Assembly (NCBI GenBank): GCA_002937895.1
Contig: PTKV01000007.1
Coordinates: forward strand, 9,440-73,439
From: Alphaproteobacteria bacterium MarineAlpha5_Bin9
GTDB taxonomy: Bacteria > Pseudomonadota > Alphaproteobacteria > HIMB59 > GCA-002718135
Reading direction: 5' to 3'
Length of the DNA stretch: 64,000 bases
The position numbers and the translations under genes are program-made. Below the pieces are notes generated by a model. It had not been told where the DNA came from. It ran no database searches and was given only the letters and a program-made list of their open reading frames with translations. Below, piece after piece: positions 16,509 through 27,783 of the stretch; the first letter of the stretch is position 1, and each line of letters starts with the position of its first letter.

Positions 16509-19500
16509 TTATAAGGATTGGAGAGGCATTACAGATAAATCATGCTCTTTTATGTATTTTATAGCTTTAACTCCTACCTTAGCACTATTAAGGTTGGTAA
16601 AATAAGGTATATTATTCATTAAAGCAGTTCTTCTTATGCTAAAACTATCTTTTATTGATATCTGAGTTTTAGTGGTATTTATTACCAAATTTATTTTGCT
16701 ATTTATTAATAATTCAACAATATGCGGGCTTCCTTCCTCAACTTTATTTATGTGAAAGGAGTTTATACCATGAATTTTTAAAAATCTTTTAGTTCCTTTC
16801 GTTGCAAATAATTTAAATTTTAAATTACTCAATAACTTCGCTATGGGAATTATTTTATGTTTATTATCATCATCAATGGATAAAAAAACGTTGCCTTTTT
16901 TAGGAAGATTAATTCCTGATCCAATTTGACTCTTAATAAAGGCACCTATAAAATTTTTGTCAACTCCCATGACTTCACCTGTTGATTTCATTTCAGGTCC
17001 TAAAATTGGCTCAACTCCATCAAATTTATTAAAAGGAAATACAGGTCCTTTTAAAGTAAATATTTTCTTTTTAGTATTTGATTTTGGAAGAAGTTTTTTT
17101 AAACTTAAACCTAACATAACTTTTGCAGCAATTTTTACTATGGGAATACCTATTGATTTTGCAACAAATGGGATAGTTCTGCTTGCCCTTGGATTAACTT
17201 CTAAAACGTATACTTTATTATCTTTTATAGCAATTTGTGTATTCATTAAACCAACAACTTTTATTTTTTTTGCTATTTTTTTAACAGTTTGGATTATTTC
17301 GTTTTTTATTTTGGAATTAATTGAAAAGGTTGGAATTGAACAAGCACTATCTCCGGAATGCACACCAGCTTCTTCAATGTGTTCCATTATTCCTGCAATA
17401 AAAATAAAACCTTTTTTATCTCTTATTAAATCAACATCTATTTCTTTTGCATTGGTTAAATACTGATCAATAAGTATAGAATTATTTGAAGAAGCTTTGA
17501 GAGCATTTAAAGAAAAATATTTAAGACTTTTTTCATCTCTAGCTATTTCCATTGCTCTTCCACCTAAAACATAAGATGGTCTAACTAAAATTGGATAACC
17601 TATTTTTTTAGAGATTTTTATAATTTGCTTTATGTTTTTACCTATTCCATTTAAAGGTTGTTGAATTTTAATTTTTTTCAAAACTTTACTAAATAAATCT
17701 CTATCTTCGGCCAAATCAATTGATTGAGTAGAAGTCCCTAAGATCTTAATTTTTTGATTTTCTAATTCTTTTGCTATTTTTAAAGGGGTTTGACCACCAA
17801 ATTGAACAAATATCCCTAGCACTTTTCCATTTTGATTTTCCTTATTATAAATTTCTATTACACTTTCAGCATTTAATGGTTCAAAATAAAGTCTATCTGC
17901 AGTATCATAGTCAGTAGAAACGGTCTCCGGATTGCAGTTGATCATAATTGTTTCTATTCCAATTTCTCTCAAGCCATATACTGCGTGAACACAACAATAA
18001 TCAAATTCAATTCCTTGACCAATTCTGTTTGGCCCCCCACCCAAAATTATTACTTTATTTTTTGAAGAAGGATTTGATTCACAAAACTTTTTATTTTCAA
18101 AGCTCCAATCATAGGTAGAATATAAATATGGTGTTTTAGAATTAAATTCACCAGCACAAGTATCTACCAATCTAAAAACTGGTCTTATATCTAATTTATA
18201 TCTTTTTTTTCTGATATAGCTTTCATCTAATTTTTTAATTTTGGCTATTTTTTTATCACTAAAACCTAATTTTTTTGCTGATAATAATATTTGTTTATTA
18301 AGTTTGTTATCTTTTAAAAATTTTTCAAATTTTATAATTTCATTTATTTTACTAACAAACCAATAATCATATTTTGTTTCTTTACAAATTTGTTTAATAC
18401 TATATCCAAGTCTGAGAGACTCACCTACAACCAATAGTCTATCTGATGATTTTTTTCTTAGATTCTCTAAAGCATTATTTTTATTTATTAATAAATTTTT
18501 TGGAAGATCAAGACCATCTAATCCATATTCAAGAGATGTAAATCCTTTTTGAAGTGATTCACAAAAATTTCTTCCAATGCTCATAGTTTCACCAACAGAT
18601 TTCATTGAAGTAGTAAGTGTTGAGTCTGTTGAAGAAAATTTCTCGAATGTAAATCTTGGTATTTTAGTTACTATATAATCTATACTAGGTTCAAAACTTG
18701 CAGGAGTAGTTTTCGTTATATCATTTTTAAGTTCATCTAAAGTATAGCCCACAGCTAATTTAGCAGCTATTTTTGCTATTGGAAATCCTGTAGCTTTTGA
18801 TGCGAGTGCCGAAGATCGGCTTACTCGAGGATTCATCTCAATAACATTTATCTCACCATTTTTTGGATTAATAGCAAACTGAACATTTGATCCACCAGTA
18901 TCAACTCCAATTTTTCGCAATACTTTAATACTAGCATTTCTAAGTATTTGGTATTCTTTATCTGTTAATGTTAAAATAGGTGCAACTGTAATACTGTCTC
19001 CAGTATGAATTCCCATAGGATCTACATTCTCTATTGAACAAACAATTATACAATTATCTTTTGAATCTCTTATTACTTCCATTTCATATTCTTTCCATCC
19101 AGCTACAGATTTTTCAATCAAAATTTGATTAGTTGGACTTGCTAAAATTCCTCTTTTACATAAATTAATAAACTCTTTATTATTATGAACTAATCCACCA
19201 CCTGTGCCGCCAAGTGTAAAACTTGGTCTTATAACTAGAGGAAGCTTTAATTTATTTTTGACCTTAATTGCTTGATGAATATTATTAACTATTAAACTTT
19301 TAGGAGTAGATAAACCTATCTCGTCCATAGCTATTTTAAATTTTTCTCTATCCTCTGCTAATTCTATAGATTTAGGATTAGCCCCTATCATCTTAATATT
19401 ATTCTTTTTTAAAATACCACTTTTAAAAAGTTCCATTGAAACATTAAGTGCGGTTTGTCCTCCCATTGTGGGAAGTAGGGCATCAGGTTTTTCGATTTTA

Positions 19501-19733
19501 ATAATTTTTTCTATAAATTCTTTTGTTATTGGTTCTACATAAGTTTTATCAGCAATTTCTGGATCTGTCATAATTGTAGCTGGGTTTGAATTTACTAAAA
19601 TAATTTTGAATCCTTCTTCTTTGAGTGATTTACAAGCCTGAGCACCAGAATAATCAAATTCACATGCCTGACCTATTACAATAGGGCCAGCTCCTATAAT
19701 TAAAATTTTATTAATATCATTTCTTTTTGGCAT
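16509..19733 (-). CDS. carB: Carbamoyl-phosphate synthase large subunit
   Basis: [30 protein letters not shown] start, two ATP-grasp halves and an MGS-like C-terminus. Start ATG 19733 chosen. Confidence 0.98.
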
Positions 19734-20898
19734 ATTTCTCAACTAGTTTTTTAAATTCTTTAAATAAATAATGACTATCATGAGGCCCTGGACTAGCCTC
19801 AGGATGATATTGAACGCTAAATACTGGTAAATATTTATGTTTTATTCCTTCGTTTGTTCCATCAAAAAGAGAGGTGTGAGTTTCCATAATATTTTTTGGA
19901 AAAGAACTTTTATCCACTTCAAACCCATGATTTTGAGATGTAATTTCAACTTTACCAGTTTTAATGTTTTTTACAGGATGGTTTGCTCCTCTATGCCCTT
20001 GAAACATTTTTTTTGTTTTACATCCCAGTGCAATACTTATTAATTGATGACCAAGACAAATGCCAAAAATGGGAATTTTATTTTTAATTAGTTTGTTTAA
20101 AGTTTTTTTAACATATAAACTAGTTGCAAAAGGATCACCAGGACCATTTGAAAGAAAAATTCCCTTAGGTTTAATTGACATAATTTCTTTAAAAGATGCA
20201 TCAGCTTTAAGGATATGGCATTCAAAATTATTATTATTTAAGCATCTTATTATATTTTTTTTTATACCATAATCTAAACAAGCAATAATATGTCTTTTCT
20301 TATTATTATTAACTAAATACTTGTTTTTTTTGATATCCCATATACTTTCATTAGATTTATAATTTGAAGTAGTTGTAACAATTTTAGCTAGATCCAAATT
20401 TTTTAGACCTTTCCATTTTTTTATTTCTTTTTTAAAAAAATTAAATTTATTATTATTTTCGATATTTATTATAGCAGCTTTAATCGCCCCTTTTTTTGCT
20501 AAGAGCCTTGTTAGATATCTAGTATCAATATTGCTAATACAAGTAATATTATTTTTAGATAAAAAAAAATCCAAACTTTTTTGACCTCTCCAATTACTAA
20601 AATTTTTTATTTCTTGATTTATAATGCATCCACAAGCATGAATTTTAGAAGATTCTAAATCAAGTTTATTTGTTCCAACAATGCCAATATGTGGAAATGT
20701 AAAAGTAATGATTTGTTTAGCATAAGATGGATCAGTTAATATTTCTTCATATCCTGTTTGAGAAGTGTTAAAACAAAGCTCCCCTATAGTATTTGTTTTA
20801 GAACCTATGCCTTTTCCAAATAATATTTCTCCATTTTCAAGTAAAAGCGCTGCTGTTGGTTTATTTAGGGTCGATTCTTTATCTTTTTTATCCAACAT
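19717..20898 (-). CDS. carA: Carbamoyl-phosphate synthase small subunit
   Basis: [26 protein letters not shown] and [12 protein letters not shown] motifs. ATG 20898 preferred because TTG 20910 lies only 2 nt after the predicted TSS. Confidence 0.97.
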
Positions 20899-20905
20899 TA
20901 ATTTA

Positions 20906-20947
20906 GGCAAACGGCCGTTTAGTAGGCATTTTGAGAGGTTTAGTCAA
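20906..20947 (-). promoter_or_regulatory. carA promoter: -35 TTGACT, 17 bp, -10 TACTAA, GC-rich discriminator ACGGCC, predicted +1 GTTTGCC
   Basis: Minus strand reads TTGACT AAACCTCTCAAAATGCC TACTAA ACGGCC GTTTGCC TAAATTA ATG. Confidence 0.7.
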
Positions 20948-21027
20948 GGACTAGTTGTATTTAATTGTATCAGTTATAATACTTTAAGAGCTTTTATTAT
21001 TCGATTCTAAAATATATAGGAGGATAA

Positions 21028-21492
21028 ATGGACTTAAGAAAAAAAATTGATGAAAAATATAAAATAGCTATTAAATCAAGACAAATCGATGAAGCTAACA
21101 CTTTAAAACTTATTCGTAGTGCCATAAAGGATAAAGATATAGAAAATAGATCTGGAGACAATTCTAAACTTATTGATAATAATAAAATTTTGTCATTATT
21201 ACAAAATTTAATTAAACAAAGAAAAGACTCTATAGAATCTTTCAAAAAAGCATCTAGAAACGATCTCGTTCAAACTGAGGAAAAAGAAATTGAAATAATT
21301 AATCAATTTTTACCTAAACAACTAATGGAATCTGAAATTAAAGAAATAATAGAAAAATTTATTTCTGAAAACAAAATTGAGTCTATCAAGGATATGGGTA
21401 AGATAATGAGTTTTTTAAAATCAAATTATTCAGGAAGTTTAGATATGAGTTTGGCCGGAAAAATTTCTAAAAATTTACTTGGCTCACAGTAA
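21028..21492 (+). CDS. GatB/YqeY domain protein
   Basis: LIKQRKDSIESF, EKEIEIINQFLPKQL and KDMGKIM patterns; SD GGAGG upstream; precedes dnaG. Confidence 0.93.
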   Translation: MDLRKKIDEKYKIAIKSRQIDEANTLKLIRSAIKDKDIENRSGDNSKLIDNNKILSLLQNLIKQRKDSIESFKKASRNDLVQTEEKEIEIINQFLPKQLMESEIKEIIEKFISENKIESIKDMGKIMSFLKSNYSGSLDMSLAGKISKNLLGSQ

Positions 21493-26357: not shown

Positions 26358-26389
26358 AAATTTTTTTAAAGATATTTTTAATAGTTGAA

Positions 26390-26992
26390 TTATTTTATTA
26401 TTTTATCGAAACTCAATTCGTTTTGTTTTTTTAGAGAAATATTAAAGTTTTCTAAATCATAATCTACTTTTTTTAACATTGAATTGAATTCAGATCTTTT
26501 TGTGAGAACCAGTGATATATCTGCAACTATTAAATCTATTACAAAAAATCTCCCTTTAGATTCTTTTATCCTCCAAGTAACAACAAAGCTATTATTTTGA
26601 TCTAATATTTCCATATCTATTAATATTAGTTGATTTGATTCATCAATTTCAGTTTTAATTAAATTGTAAGATTGGTCTGCATAACCTTGCATCATAGAAG
26701 CTATGTTAAGAGCGAGATGTTTTTTAAATAATTTTATATATTCTTTTTTTAAGTCTTCATTTGCTGAAGCCCATGCTTTTCCTGCGACAAATTTAGCAAT
26801 TCCGGCTCCAGCAAAGTTTGAATTTACTGTTTTTTCAACTATATTAAACCTTTCTAAATTGCTCAGAGATGAATTTTTGTAAGAATTTAAAATATTATCT
26901 ACTTCTGATTGGAGCCACGTTGTTACTTCTTGAGCTTTTACATAGGTTGTTAATAAGAAAAATATTATTAATGTTTTTTTTATAAATTTCAT
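26390..26992 (-). CDS. mlaC: MlaC/Ttg2D phospholipid-binding protein
   Basis: Signal peptide; VTWRI...FVIDLIVADISLVLTKRSEF C-terminal motif; downstream of mlaA. Confidence 0.85.
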   Translation of the reverse strand: MKFIKKTLIIFFLLTTYVKAQEVTTWLQSEVDNILNSYKNSSLSNLERFNIVEKTVNSNFAGAGIAKFVAGKAWASANEDLKKEYIKLFKKHLALNIASMMQGYADQSYNLIKTEIDESNQLILIDMEILDQNNSFVVTWRIKESKGRFFVIDLIVADISLVLTKRSEFNSMLKKVDYDLENFNISLKKQNELSFDKIIK

Positions 26993-26994
26993 AA

Positions 26995-27783
26995 TTATTC
27001 AAATTCTATACTTATTATTGGAGCCGGGGCAGAAACATTATCTTCCTCATTTCTAATTGCTGCTTTTCTATTTTGATAATAAGAACTTCTTACTGCTGCA
27101 TAATAATCTACAGAGTTGTTTCTTAATGCATTGACTTCATCAATAATTTTTGATCTATAGTCTATTGCATTACCTGTTATTCTATAAGGAATAAACCAGC
27201 CTTGATTTTGATCAATTAAAAAAGAGTTAATAGGATCATATGTATATGTTAAAAAAGTTCCTGCTGCATCTCTAACATTTGAAGGACCAAATATTGGAAG
27301 AACTACATAAAAACCATCTCCAACTCCCCACGCAGCAAGAGTTTGTCCAAAGTCTTCATCTTTCTCTTCAAGACCAACTCTAGAAGCAACATCTACAATT
27401 CCAACTAACCCAATAGTACTATTAATAACAAATCTACCTGTCGATTCTATTGCGTTTCCTCCTTGTCCTTGAAGCACTTGATTTATGATAATCAGAGGCA
27501 TTCTAAGATTACCAAAAAAATTACTAATTCCACTTTGTAAAGGTGAGGGTAATTTTCTATAACCTTTAGCAGTCGGTTCAAGTATTAATTTATCTAAAAC
27601 ATTATTAAAACTAAATATTACTCTATTTAAAGGCTCGAGCGGATCATATACCTCATCTTCAAATGTTGATGTTTCAAAATCATTTGGATAGGTTGTAACG
27701 TTATCTGCTGTTTCAGCAGAAAACAATTGAAAAGAAAATAGAAATAATATTGTAAAAATTGTTTTTTTTAGAAAAATTTTCAT
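26995..27783 (-). CDS. mlaA: VacJ/MlaA family protein
   Basis: YDPLEPLNRVIFSFN, RFVINSTIG, EDFGQTL, VVLPIFGPSNVRD and YAAVRSSYYQNR motifs. Confidence 0.95.
   Translation of the reverse strand: MKIFLKKTIFTILFLFSFQLFSAETADNVTTYPNDFETSTFEDEVYDPLEPLNRVIFSFNNVLDKLILEPTAKGYRKLPSPLQSGISNFFGNLRMPLIIINQVLQGQGGNAIESTGRFVINSTIGLVGIVDVASRVGLEEKDEDFGQTLAAWGVGDGFYVVLPIFGPSNVRDAAGTFLTYTYDPINSFLIDQNQGWFIPYRITGNAIDYRSKIIDEVNALRNNSVDYYAAVRSSYYQNRKAAIRNEEDNVSAPAPIISIEFE

What the first reader, a model, noticed from the sequence alone, without database searches (positions are those of the whole stretch)
20898..20947. carA promoter predicted to start at GTTTGC: candidate UTP-sensing reiterative transcription in a streamlined alphaproteobacterium
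Seen (minus strand): TTGACT-17 bp-TACTAA-ACGGCC-GTTTGCC-TAAATTA-ATG. This unusually GC-rich patch includes a perfect palindrome, AAACGGCCGTTT (20909-20920). The predicted +1 is the G at 20912, giving a 14-nt leader without an SD. Established: E. coli carAB P1 has a GC-rich discriminator and initiates GUUUGC, where high UTP makes RNAP slip on the three Ts and abort productive transcription. Inference: the same factor-free pyrimidine sensor, plus stringent control, may regulate carbamoyl-phosphate synthesis here. I am not aware of this being described in this lineage. The palindrome could alternatively be a repressor site.
Basis: partly seen in the sequence, partly recalled or inferred. Interest (0 to 1): 0.7.

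Follow-up and report, generated by a model that had tools for sequence, protein, structure and literature searches.

The report
carA promoter with conserved T-tract start
The promoter of the carbamoyl-phosphate synthase genes in this tiny marine bacterium has the same layout as the E. coli promoter that senses UTP by RNA-polymerase "stuttering", and the key T-run is conserved across the whole bacterial order, so the same protein-free pyrimidine sensor probably works here, though this has not been tested experimentally.

Summary
On the minus strand the window reads TTGACT, 17 nt, TACTAA, ACGGCC, GTTTGCC, TAAATTA, ATG(carA), and it includes the palindrome AAACGGCCGTTT. E. coli carAB P1 reads TTGACT, 17 nt, CAGAAT, GCCGCC, G(+1)TTTGCC, which is the same geometry with ten identical bases.

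In family f1, 38 of 40 genomes from 8 genera have a G or A placed 6-8 nt after an invariant TA(C/G)T(A/T)A, usually preceded by C, and always followed by T3-4. The TTT columns are invariant, while the discriminator and leader around them have diverged to 24-31% pairwise identity. The run keeps its distance to the -10 but not to the ATG (14-21 nt). Sister family f2 has TACTAA, 7-8 nt, then GATTTAA or GTTTTAA in 10 of 10 genomes.

Among 27 promoter-like sites in this 27% G+C genome, only carA has a purine, T3-4 and G at the start position, and only carA has a G+C-rich discriminator (5 of 6). The full palindrome is not conserved.

Metatranscriptome contigs from a relative put the 5' boundary of carA RNA just downstream of the promoter but cannot resolve +1. 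UTP dependence cannot be tested with these tools.

Verdict: a well-supported candidate, and if confirmed a new member of a known kind (UTP-sensitive reiterative transcription), probably in the HIMB59/AEGEAN-169 order.

The parts
20942..20947 (-). -35 hexamer TTGACT
   Evidence: It is present in 39 of the 40 family f1 genomes examined (G003 has ATGACT), always 17 nt from the -10. It is identical to the -35 of E. coli carAB P1.
20948..20958 (-). Conserved block ACAACTAGTCC directly upstream of the -35; function unexplained
   Evidence: near-invariant in 11 representatives from 6 genera; the other 7 genomic copies all lie inside coding sequences, so there is no regulon. It may double as the -35 of the divergent yqeY promoter.
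20925..20931 (-). Conserved block AAATGCC at the 3' end of the spacer, directly upstream of the -10; unexplained
   Evidence: invariant in the 11 representatives, while spacer positions 2-10 are variable.
20919..20924 (-). -10 hexamer TACTAA, weak (3 of 6, no T at -7)
   Evidence: It is TA(C/G)T(A/T)A across f1 and TACTAA in all of f2.
20913..20918 (-). G+C-rich discriminator ACGGCC (5 of 6 G+C)
   Evidence: the other 26 promoter-like sites in this genome have 0-3 G+C in these six positions. The sequence varies among relatives, but G+C is enriched in most genera. The E. coli P1 equivalent is GCCGCC.
20906..20912 (-). Predicted initially transcribed region GTTTGCC: predicted +1 is G at 20912, T-run at 20911-20909
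   Evidence: The TTT columns are invariant in 11 representatives, against 24-31% pairwise identity in the flanks. A purine lies 6-8 nt after the -10 in 38 of 40 f1 genomes.
20909..20920 (-). Palindrome AAACGGCCGTTT, spanning the end of the -10 to +4
   Evidence: unique in the genome. Only the AAAC and GTTT arms are conserved. The centre is palindromic only here and in G002.
20899..20912 (-). 14-nt leader without a Shine-Dalgarno sequence
   Evidence: Leader length in relatives varies from 14 to 21 nt, with indels that break the frame from the in-frame TTG at 20910, so the leader is non-coding.
19717..20898 (-). carA (glutamine-hydrolysing carbamoyl-phosphate synthase small subunit)
   Evidence: TIGR01368, E = 5.5e-130.
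16509..19733 (-). carB (large subunit); overlaps carA by 17 nt
   Evidence: NF003671, 1631 bits. The ATG was read from L001.
21028..21492 (+). Divergent yqeY-like gene, first gene of yqeY-dnaG, which shares the 129-bp intergenic region
   Evidence: PF09424, E = 2.9e-38. dnaG is identified.

Best explanation
A single sigma-70-type promoter drives carAB: TTGACT, 17 nt, then the deliberately weak -10 TACTAA. Transcription most likely starts at the G at window position 20912, giving an RNA that begins GUUUGCC.

After GUUU is made, the weak rU:dA hybrid can slip back by one base.
- When UTP is plentiful, extra U residues are added again and again, and the GUUUU(n) products are released instead of being extended, so little carAB mRNA is made.
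- When UTP is scarce, the next templated base (G) is added and the polymerase escapes.

The G+C-rich discriminator ACGGCC, combined with the poor -10, probably gives a short-lived open complex. That would add sensitivity to ppGpp/DksA.

Shown here: the promoter elements, their strict conservation, and the fixed position of the T-run relative to the -10. Also shown: the base-for-base match in spacing to E. coli P1, the uniqueness of the layout in this genome, and an RNA 5' boundary just downstream of the promoter in a relative.

Inferred: the exact +1, the slippage, its dependence on UTP, and the ppGpp effect.
For: 1. Same geometry as the proven E. coli case. E. coli P1 is TTGACT, 17 nt, CAGAAT, GCCGCC, G(+1)TTTGCC. 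The GUUUGC start, the GCCGCC discriminator and the loss of control when the T-run is interrupted are described in PMC6245113.

2. Conservation. A purine followed by T3-4 lies 6-8 nt after the -10 in 38 of 40 genomes from 8 genera of the family and at 8-9 nt in 10 of 10 genomes of the sister family. The TTT columns are invariant, while the discriminator shows 0.24-0.31 and the downstream leader mostly 0.22-0.53 pairwise identity. C is usual at -1, as expected for a pyrimidine(-1)/purine(+1) start.

3. The run keeps its distance to the -10, not to the ATG (14-21 nt), and frame-breaking indels show the leader is non-coding.

4. Within this genome, only 1 of 27 promoter-like sites has purine-TTT(T)-G at the start position, and carA is the only one with a discriminator above 3 of 6 G+C. 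The null probability is 0.014.

5. A run of at least 3 nt at or just after the start is the stated requirement, and the mechanism is expected to be conserved across bacteria (PMC8812562). The process is enriched at nucleotide-metabolism genes in S. agalactiae (PMC4448216).

6. RNA contigs on a g8 relative:
- Depth is about 2.4 upstream and above 40 downstream of positions 1471-1488.
- An adapter is fused at 1479, 11 nt after the predicted +1.
- In two other samples the contigs end at 1493 with nothing upstream.

7. No ArgR in 16 genomes. A dksA homologue and one relA/spoT homologue are present.
Against: - No start site is known at single-base resolution, for this genome or any relative.
- Several RNA contigs span the whole intergenic region, so either upstream transcription or DNA carry-over exists.
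- The one fixed fragment end lies at +12, not +1.
- The -10 lacks the normally critical T at -7.
- A T3 run gives only about threefold control in E. coli.
- A large g8 subclade has ATTTC, so the base added after the run would be CTP, which fits a simple low-pyrimidine logic less neatly.
- Two genera (G003, G005) lack the purine-TTT signature.
- Other pyrimidine genes in the genome show no such starts.
- Extra invariant blocks next to the -35 and -10 hint at a protein factor.
- The layout does not extend to other alphaproteobacterial families.
Confidence: 0.5

Rival explanations
1. The promoter and start site are as predicted, but the conserved 5'-terminal (G/A)UUU serves another purpose in this short leader, which lacks a Shine-Dalgarno sequence. 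It could be a U-rich contact for ribosomal protein S1, a determinant of mRNA stability, or an initial transcribed sequence tuned for promoter escape. No UTP sensing is involved.
For: The leader has no Shine-Dalgarno sequence, although the neighbouring yqeY has GGAGGA. Leaders are short and A+U-rich in all relatives. The base after the run is not fixed: G, C or A.
Against: The run is fixed relative to the -10 and not to the start codon, from which it lies 14-21 nt. That is the opposite of what a translation signal would show. The rest of the leader is free to vary. Any run of three or more T at +2 is expected to slip to some degree (PMC8812562).
Confidence: 0.2
2. The sequence from the -10 to +4 (AAAC-N4-GTTT), perhaps together with the invariant AAATGCC and ACAACTAnTCC blocks, is the operator of an unidentified DNA-binding regulator that represses or activates carAB.
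For: There is a perfect 12-bp palindrome in this genome and another (AAACTGCAGTTT) in G002. G010 and G008 have 5+2+5 partial palindromes. Conservation extends well beyond the two hexamers.
Against: - The centre of the palindrome is variable. The palindrome is absent from the largest genus (g8) and from family f2.
- The two arms are explained independently, as the -10 extension and the T-run.
- None of the blocks recurs at another promoter in the genome.
- No ArgR is present.
Confidence: 0.12
3. The real start lies elsewhere and the T-run is not at +1. One possibility is an upstream carA-sense promoter. Another, in genus g8, is a promoter that uses CATTTT as its -10 and starts about 11 nt further downstream.
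For: Contigs in five RNA runs cross the intergenic region. The adapter-fused end at L010:1479 lies exactly 7 nt after CATTTT.
Against: Half the genera have G, not A, at the position that would be -11, which is incompatible with a -10 element. This reading leaves the invariant TTGACT-17-TA(C/G)TAA unexplained. The region has no RNA fold (z = -0.62) and no Rfam match. In one sample, depth upstream is about 15-fold lower than in carA.
Confidence: 0.1
4. The resemblance to E. coli P1 is a coincidence, and the conservation merely reflects shared ancestry.
For: T-runs are common in 23% G+C intergenic DNA: purine-TTT falls in a 3-position window with probability 0.097. The first-stage reader flagged similar layouts in many genomes.
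Against: The neighbouring columns have diverged to 24-31% identity while TTT stays invariant across 7 genera and a second family. Only 1 of 27 promoter-like sites in the genome shows the layout.
Confidence: 0.06

Closest known systems
Escherichia coli carAB P1 promoter (UTP-sensitive reiterative transcription plus stringent control; Han & Turnbough 1998, as reviewed in PMC6245113)
   Same: It controls the same operon and has the identical -35 (TTGACT) and a 17-nt spacer. Both have a weak -10 (3 of 6), a 6-nt G+C-rich discriminator, a G at the 7th base after the -10, and the identical GTTTGCC initially transcribed region. Ten consecutive bases (GCCGTTTGCC) are identical.
   Different: E. coli adds a second, arginine-repressed promoter (P2) and at least five proteins acting on P1 (PepA, IHF, PyrH, RutR, PurR). 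Here there is one promoter, a 14-nt leader and no ArgR. The host is an alphaproteobacterium with 27% G+C. Other alphaproteobacterial families lack the layout, so convergence is more likely than inheritance. Function is not tested here.
E. coli pyrBI promoter (initially transcribed region AATTTG)
   Same: An A start followed by a T-run and then G, as in the ATTTTG variant of genus g8. According to PMC6245113, an A start and longer -10-to-start spacing increase stuttering.
   Different: pyrBI combines this with a leader-peptide attenuator. No attenuator, hairpin or leader peptide is present here.
E. coli codBA and upp-uraA promoters (GATTTTTTG-type; UTP-sensitive start-site switching plus reiterative transcription)
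   Same: The sister family has G-A-TTT-AA 8-9 nt after the -10. That layout offers alternative G and A starts ahead of a T-run.
   Different: The run has only three T, where the E. coli promoters have six to eight. The genes are biosynthetic rather than salvage genes. Not tested.
Bacillus subtilis pyrG (CTP-sensitive reiterative transcription)
   Same: Control of a pyrimidine gene without a transcription factor, through slippage at the start site (PMC8812562, PMC4448216).
   Different: There the added bases are G, they act positively by preventing attenuation, and CTP rather than UTP is sensed.

Membership tests
UTP-sensitive reiterative-transcription promoters (E. coli carAB P1 / pyrBI type) | A run of at least 3 T (non-template strand) at or immediately downstream of the start site | tested here: met
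   TTT lies at 20911-20909, the 8th to 10th bases after the -10, directly after a C-G pyrimidine/purine step. The requirement is stated in PMC8812562. It is met relative to the predicted start, not a measured one.
UTP-sensitive reiterative-transcription promoters (E. coli carAB P1 / pyrBI type) | Transcription actually starts at the purine preceding the T-run | tested here: inconclusive
   No RNA covers the window itself. In a g8 relative the 5' boundary of abundant carA RNA lies within about 11-25 nt downstream of the predicted +1. Other contigs span the intergenic region.
UTP-sensitive reiterative-transcription promoters (E. coli carAB P1 / pyrBI type) | Non-templated poly-U products whose yield rises with UTP, with productive transcripts falling | not testable with these tools
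   This needs in vitro transcription or 5'-end sequencing of raw reads.
UTP-sensitive reiterative-transcription promoters (E. coli carAB P1 / pyrBI type) | Control is lost when the T-run is interrupted | not testable with these tools
   This needs mutant reporters. The natural exceptions G003 and G005 lack the purine-TTT signature, but their phenotype is unknown.
UTP-sensitive reiterative-transcription promoters (E. coli carAB P1 / pyrBI type) | The controlled gene belongs to pyrimidine nucleotide metabolism | tested here: met
   carA and carB are identified. pyrB, C, D, F, G, H and upp are present in the genome.
UTP-sensitive reiterative-transcription promoters (E. coli carAB P1 / pyrBI type) | The T-run is under selection at a fixed distance from the -10 | tested here: met
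   38 of 40 family genomes and 10 of 10 in the sister family have it. The columns are invariant amid diverged flanks.
Stringently controlled (ppGpp/DksA-sensitive) promoters | A G+C-rich discriminator between the -10 and +1 | tested here: met
   ACGGCC has 5 of 6 G+C, against 0-3 in 26 other promoter-like sites. Relatives range from 1 of 5 to 5 of 6.
Stringently controlled (ppGpp/DksA-sensitive) promoters | The organism has the ppGpp synthase/hydrolase and DksA | tested here: met
   tblastn finds one RelA/SpoT homologue (E = 1.8e-150) and a DksA homologue (E = 2.6e-24).
Stringently controlled (ppGpp/DksA-sensitive) promoters | Promoter activity falls when ppGpp rises | not testable with these tools
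   This needs an experiment.
Palindromic operator of a dimeric repressor | The inverted repeat is conserved in relatives | tested here: not met
   The full palindrome occurs only in this genome and in G002. It is absent from g8 and f2.
Palindromic operator of a dimeric repressor | The site recurs at other promoters (a regulon) | tested here: not met
   AAACGGCCGTTT and ACGGCCGT are each unique in the genome.

The most novel reading that the evidence does not exclude
The whole order (probably HIMB59/AEGEAN-169) may have replaced the multi-protein control of carbamoyl-phosphate synthesis with a single promoter that reads nucleotide pools directly. UTP would be read through slippage on the T-run, ppGpp through the discriminator, and the next nucleotide through the base after the run. 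Lineage-specific variants (GTTTG, ATTTTG, ATTTC, GATTTAA) would set different sensitivities. The ATTTC subclade would then read the UTP/CTP balance rather than UTP alone.
Probability: 0.2. Interest if true: 0.6.

Novelty: new member of a known kind. Interest (0 to 1): 0.4.

Why it matters
Streamlined marine bacteria carry very few transcription factors, and how they tune biosynthesis is largely unknown. If confirmed, this promoter would show that control of a branch-point enzyme can be written entirely into about 45 bp of promoter DNA. It would extend UTP-sensitive reiterative transcription to an abundant marine alphaproteobacterial order. It would also be a striking case of convergence on the E. 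coli carAB P1 design. The natural variants of the run give a ready-made mutant series for testing the rules of slippage. No paper in the searched library links reiterative transcription with Alphaproteobacteria.

Tried and rejected
- **RNA element in a longer leader:** no significant fold (z = -0.62), no Rfam match and no terminator-like hairpin.
- **TTG at 20910 as the true carA start:** rejected. Indels and a stop codon break that frame in G006, G008, G004, G001 and G021.
- **A regulon sharing the promoter blocks:** none found. The only other TTGACT-17-TACTAA lies inside a lipoprotein gene. All other ACAACTAnTCC copies are coding. The only other purine-plus-T-run 'promoter' lies antisense inside a gene that reads like ribosomal protein L29.
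- **The same signature at other pyrimidine genes of the genome:** not seen.
- **A start site from public RNA:** metatranscriptomes from the window's own sample do not cover it. Contigs for the G025-like strain cross the short intergenic region. Contigs for a g8 relative only bracket the start. I first misread the X61 contig as ending at 1471; its true end is 1493.
- **Extension to other Alphaproteobacteria:** the upstream regions cannot be aligned. Family f105 has a T-run too far from its -10. Family f152 (NCBI 'Pelagibacteraceae') has a different promoter.
- **ECF-type, sigma-54 and sigma-32 promoter readings:** considered from the sequence and dropped, because the spacing or the key bases do not fit.
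- **The 81-aa antisense ORF at 20765-21010:** judged spurious, because relatives carry indels there.
- **The original Han & Turnbough and Turnbough review papers:** not held in the library.

Full report
**What is there.** Read on the minus strand, window 20947-20896 is TTGACT (20947-20942), a 17-nt spacer, TACTAA (20924-20919), ACGGCC, GTTTGCC (20912-20906), TAAATTA and ATG. The ORF that follows is carA (TIGR01368, 433 bits), then carB, which overlaps it by 17 nt. On the other strand, 129 bp away, a yqeY-like gene (PF09424) starts an operon with dnaG. The palindrome AAACGGCCGTTT (20920-20909) is exact. The consensus promoter scan did not list the site, because the -10 matches TATAAT at only three positions and lacks the final T. 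The case for a promoter must rest on other evidence.

**The genome.** The window lies in a 1.23-Mb, 22-contig marine metagenome-assembled genome, estimated 93% complete and 27% G+C. Its order contains two families, one of which holds a complete single-contig genome of 1,410,127 bp. This fits the published description of GTDB order HIMB59 (AEGEAN-169), with families HIMB59 and GCA002718135 at about 29% G+C (PMC10734472). The assignment is an inference. NCBI labels a 55%-identical CarA relative 'Pelagibacteraceae'.

**Comparison with the proven case.** In E. coli MG1655 the region upstream of carA reads TTGACT, 17 nt, CAGAAT, GCCGCC, GTTTGCC. The review by Charlier and colleagues (PMC6245113) reports the following:
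- P1 RNA starts GUUUGC.
- The 6-bp GCCGCC lies between the Pribnow box and the G start and may act as a stringent discriminator.
- High UTP causes slippage to GUUUU(n), and those products are not elongated.
- Interrupting the T-run abolishes this control.
- The starting base and the -10-to-start spacing modulate stuttering.

The window has the identical -35, the same spacer length, an equally weak -10, a 6-nt G+C-rich discriminator and the identical GTTTGCC. Ten consecutive bases are the same.

**Conservation.** I aligned carA upstream regions from 19 relatives in all 8 genera of the family, from 20 more species of the largest genus and from 10 genomes of the sister family.

In the family:
- The -35 is TTGACT, always 17 nt from the -10, in 39 of 40 genomes; G003 has ATGACT.
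- The -10 is TA(C/G)T(A/T)A.
- In 38 of 40 genomes a G or A lies 6-8 nt after the -10 and is followed by T3-4.
- The base before the purine is usually C, the preferred pyrimidine/purine start step.

In 11 representatives the three T columns are invariant. The discriminator columns show 24-31% pairwise identity and most of the downstream leader 22-53%. The distance from the run to the ATG varies from 14 to 21 nt, with indels that break the frame from the in-frame TTG. The leader is therefore non-coding, and the run is positioned relative to the promoter, not the start codon.

The sister family has TTGAA(A/T), 16 nt, TACTAA, 7-8 nt, then GATTTAA or GTTTTAA just before the ATG, in 10 of 10 genomes. 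The exceptions within the family are G005 (C-TTTT) and G003 (no run).

**Background.** In this genome's intergenic DNA (22.8% G+C):
- Purine-TTT falls in a given three-position window with probability 0.097.
- Purine-TTT(T)-G does so with probability 0.014.
- Among 27 promoter-like sites (TTGAC, 16-18 nt, TAnn[A/T][A/T]), only carA has purine-TTT(T)-G at the start position.
- Its discriminator has 5 of 6 G+C, against 0-3 for all the others.
- The one other site with a purine plus T-run lies antisense inside a small gene that reads like ribosomal protein L29.
- CGGCCG occurs at three sites in the genome, and GCCGTTTGCC once.

**The palindrome.** Only its arms are conserved, and each arm belongs to an independently conserved element: AAAC to the -10 extension and GTTT to the start region. 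The centre is palindromic here (GGCC) and in G002 (TGCA), partly so in G010 and G008, and not at all in the largest genus or the sister family. The site is unique in the genome. A repressor operator is therefore an unlikely reading, though not excluded. That caution holds because two further blocks are invariant and unexplained: ACAACTAnTCC upstream of the -35, and AAATGCC upstream of the -10. They recur at no other promoter.

**RNA evidence.** Metatranscriptomes from the sample that holds the window do not cover it. For a relative in genus g8 (locus L010) the predicted elements are: -35 at 1434-1439, -10 at 1457-1462, +1 at A1468, TTTT at 1469-1472 and ATG at 1489. The runs show three patterns:
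- Two runs from one sample contain a contig in which an Illumina adapter is fused to the carA sense strand at 1479. In one of them, depth rises from about 2.4 to above 40 between 1471 and 1488.
- Two samples from another study have contigs that end exactly at 1493, with no coverage upstream.
- Five other runs have low-depth contigs that cross the intergenic region.

Contigs carry no strand and have flat depth. This shows only that abundant carA RNA begins just downstream of the proposed promoter. It does not fix +1. The 11-nt offset could reflect loss of the 5' end during cDNA synthesis, a processing site or a second start.

**Context.**
- The genome holds pyrB, C, D, F, G, H and upp, a dksA homologue and one relA/spoT homologue. 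Their upstream regions show no similar layout.
- Ornithine carbamoyltransferase scores above the family cut-off in 12 of 26 genomes of the order and just below it in most of the sister family. In this genome, G003 and G005 only the pyrB-like hit appears.
- No ArgR domain is found in 16 genomes.
- Outside the order the layout is not conserved. Twenty class-level upstream regions cannot be aligned. Family f105 places its T-run too far from its -10 and has a longer leader. Family f152 has a different promoter.

The resemblance to E. coli is therefore more likely convergence than inheritance.

**Mechanism and odds.** I put it at 0.5. My rough odds on the steps behind that figure:
- Promoter and approximate start are right: about 0.8.
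- The T-run is constrained by a role in initiation: about 0.65.

The rivals are:
- a non-regulatory role of the 5' U-run (0.2);
- an unknown DNA-binding factor (0.12);
- a different start site (0.1);
- coincidence (0.06).

General literature supports feasibility. A run of at least 3 nt at the start suffices, and the mechanism is expected to be conserved across bacteria (PMC8812562). Reiterative initiation is pervasive and enriched at nucleotide genes in S. agalactiae (PMC4448216).

**Novelty.** If true, this is a new member of a known kind. No paper in the searched library links reiterative transcription with Alphaproteobacteria. Unchecked first-stage notes from this scan flag comparable car promoter layouts in other lineages. 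That suggests the design may be widespread and tempers the surprise.

Noticed in passing
window 20948-20958 and 20925-20931 (minus strand): Two blocks flanking the -35 and -10 (ACAACTAnTCC and AAATGCC) are invariant across 6 genera yet occur at no other promoter in the genome. The first may double as the -35 (TAGTTG) of the divergent yqeY promoter, whose perfect TATAAT lies at 20975-20980 on the + strand.
   Followed up: partly
window 21001-21009 (carA-sense strand); also L072-L088 just before the carA ATG: TAGAATCG(A/T) is conserved between the yqeY start codon and the carA promoter in most genera of the family. A similar AAATCTAGAATCA sits directly before the carA ATG in family f152 (NCBI 'Pelagibacteraceae').
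   Followed up: no
G000 whole genome; G003 and G005: In this genome and two relatives the ornithine carbamoyltransferase model (TIGR00658) finds only the pyrB-like hit. It scores above the cut-off in 12 of 26 genomes of the order and just below it in most of the sister family. This is either arginine auxotrophy or assembly gaps (the genome is 93% complete). No ArgR domain is found in any of 16 genomes.
   Followed up: partly
G000:C8, about 26359-27492 (outside the window): The pyrB open frame is about 385-406 aa across family f1 but 304 aa in family f2. This implies a conserved N-terminal extension of about 90 aa of unknown function on aspartate carbamoyltransferase.
   Followed up: no
L062-L089 (family f105, relatives of G143): Upstream of carA there is an invariant ATGAGTTGTATTT mini-ORF (MSCI...) whose stop overlaps the likely TTG start of carA. 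One genus also has a T7-8 run. This may be a leader-peptide or translational-coupling device distinct from the one studied here.
   Followed up: no
window 19717-19733: carA and carB overlap by 17 nt, which suggests translational coupling of the two subunits.
   Followed up: no
window 20765-21010 (+): An 81-aa open frame runs antisense across the carA start and promoter. Indels in relatives argue that it is not a gene.
   Followed up: partly
L010:1479 (g8 relative): Logan contigs from two RNA runs of one sample carry an Illumina adapter fused at exactly the same base of the carA leader. This is a fixed fragment end that could be mined in the raw reads for start-site mapping.
   Followed up: partly
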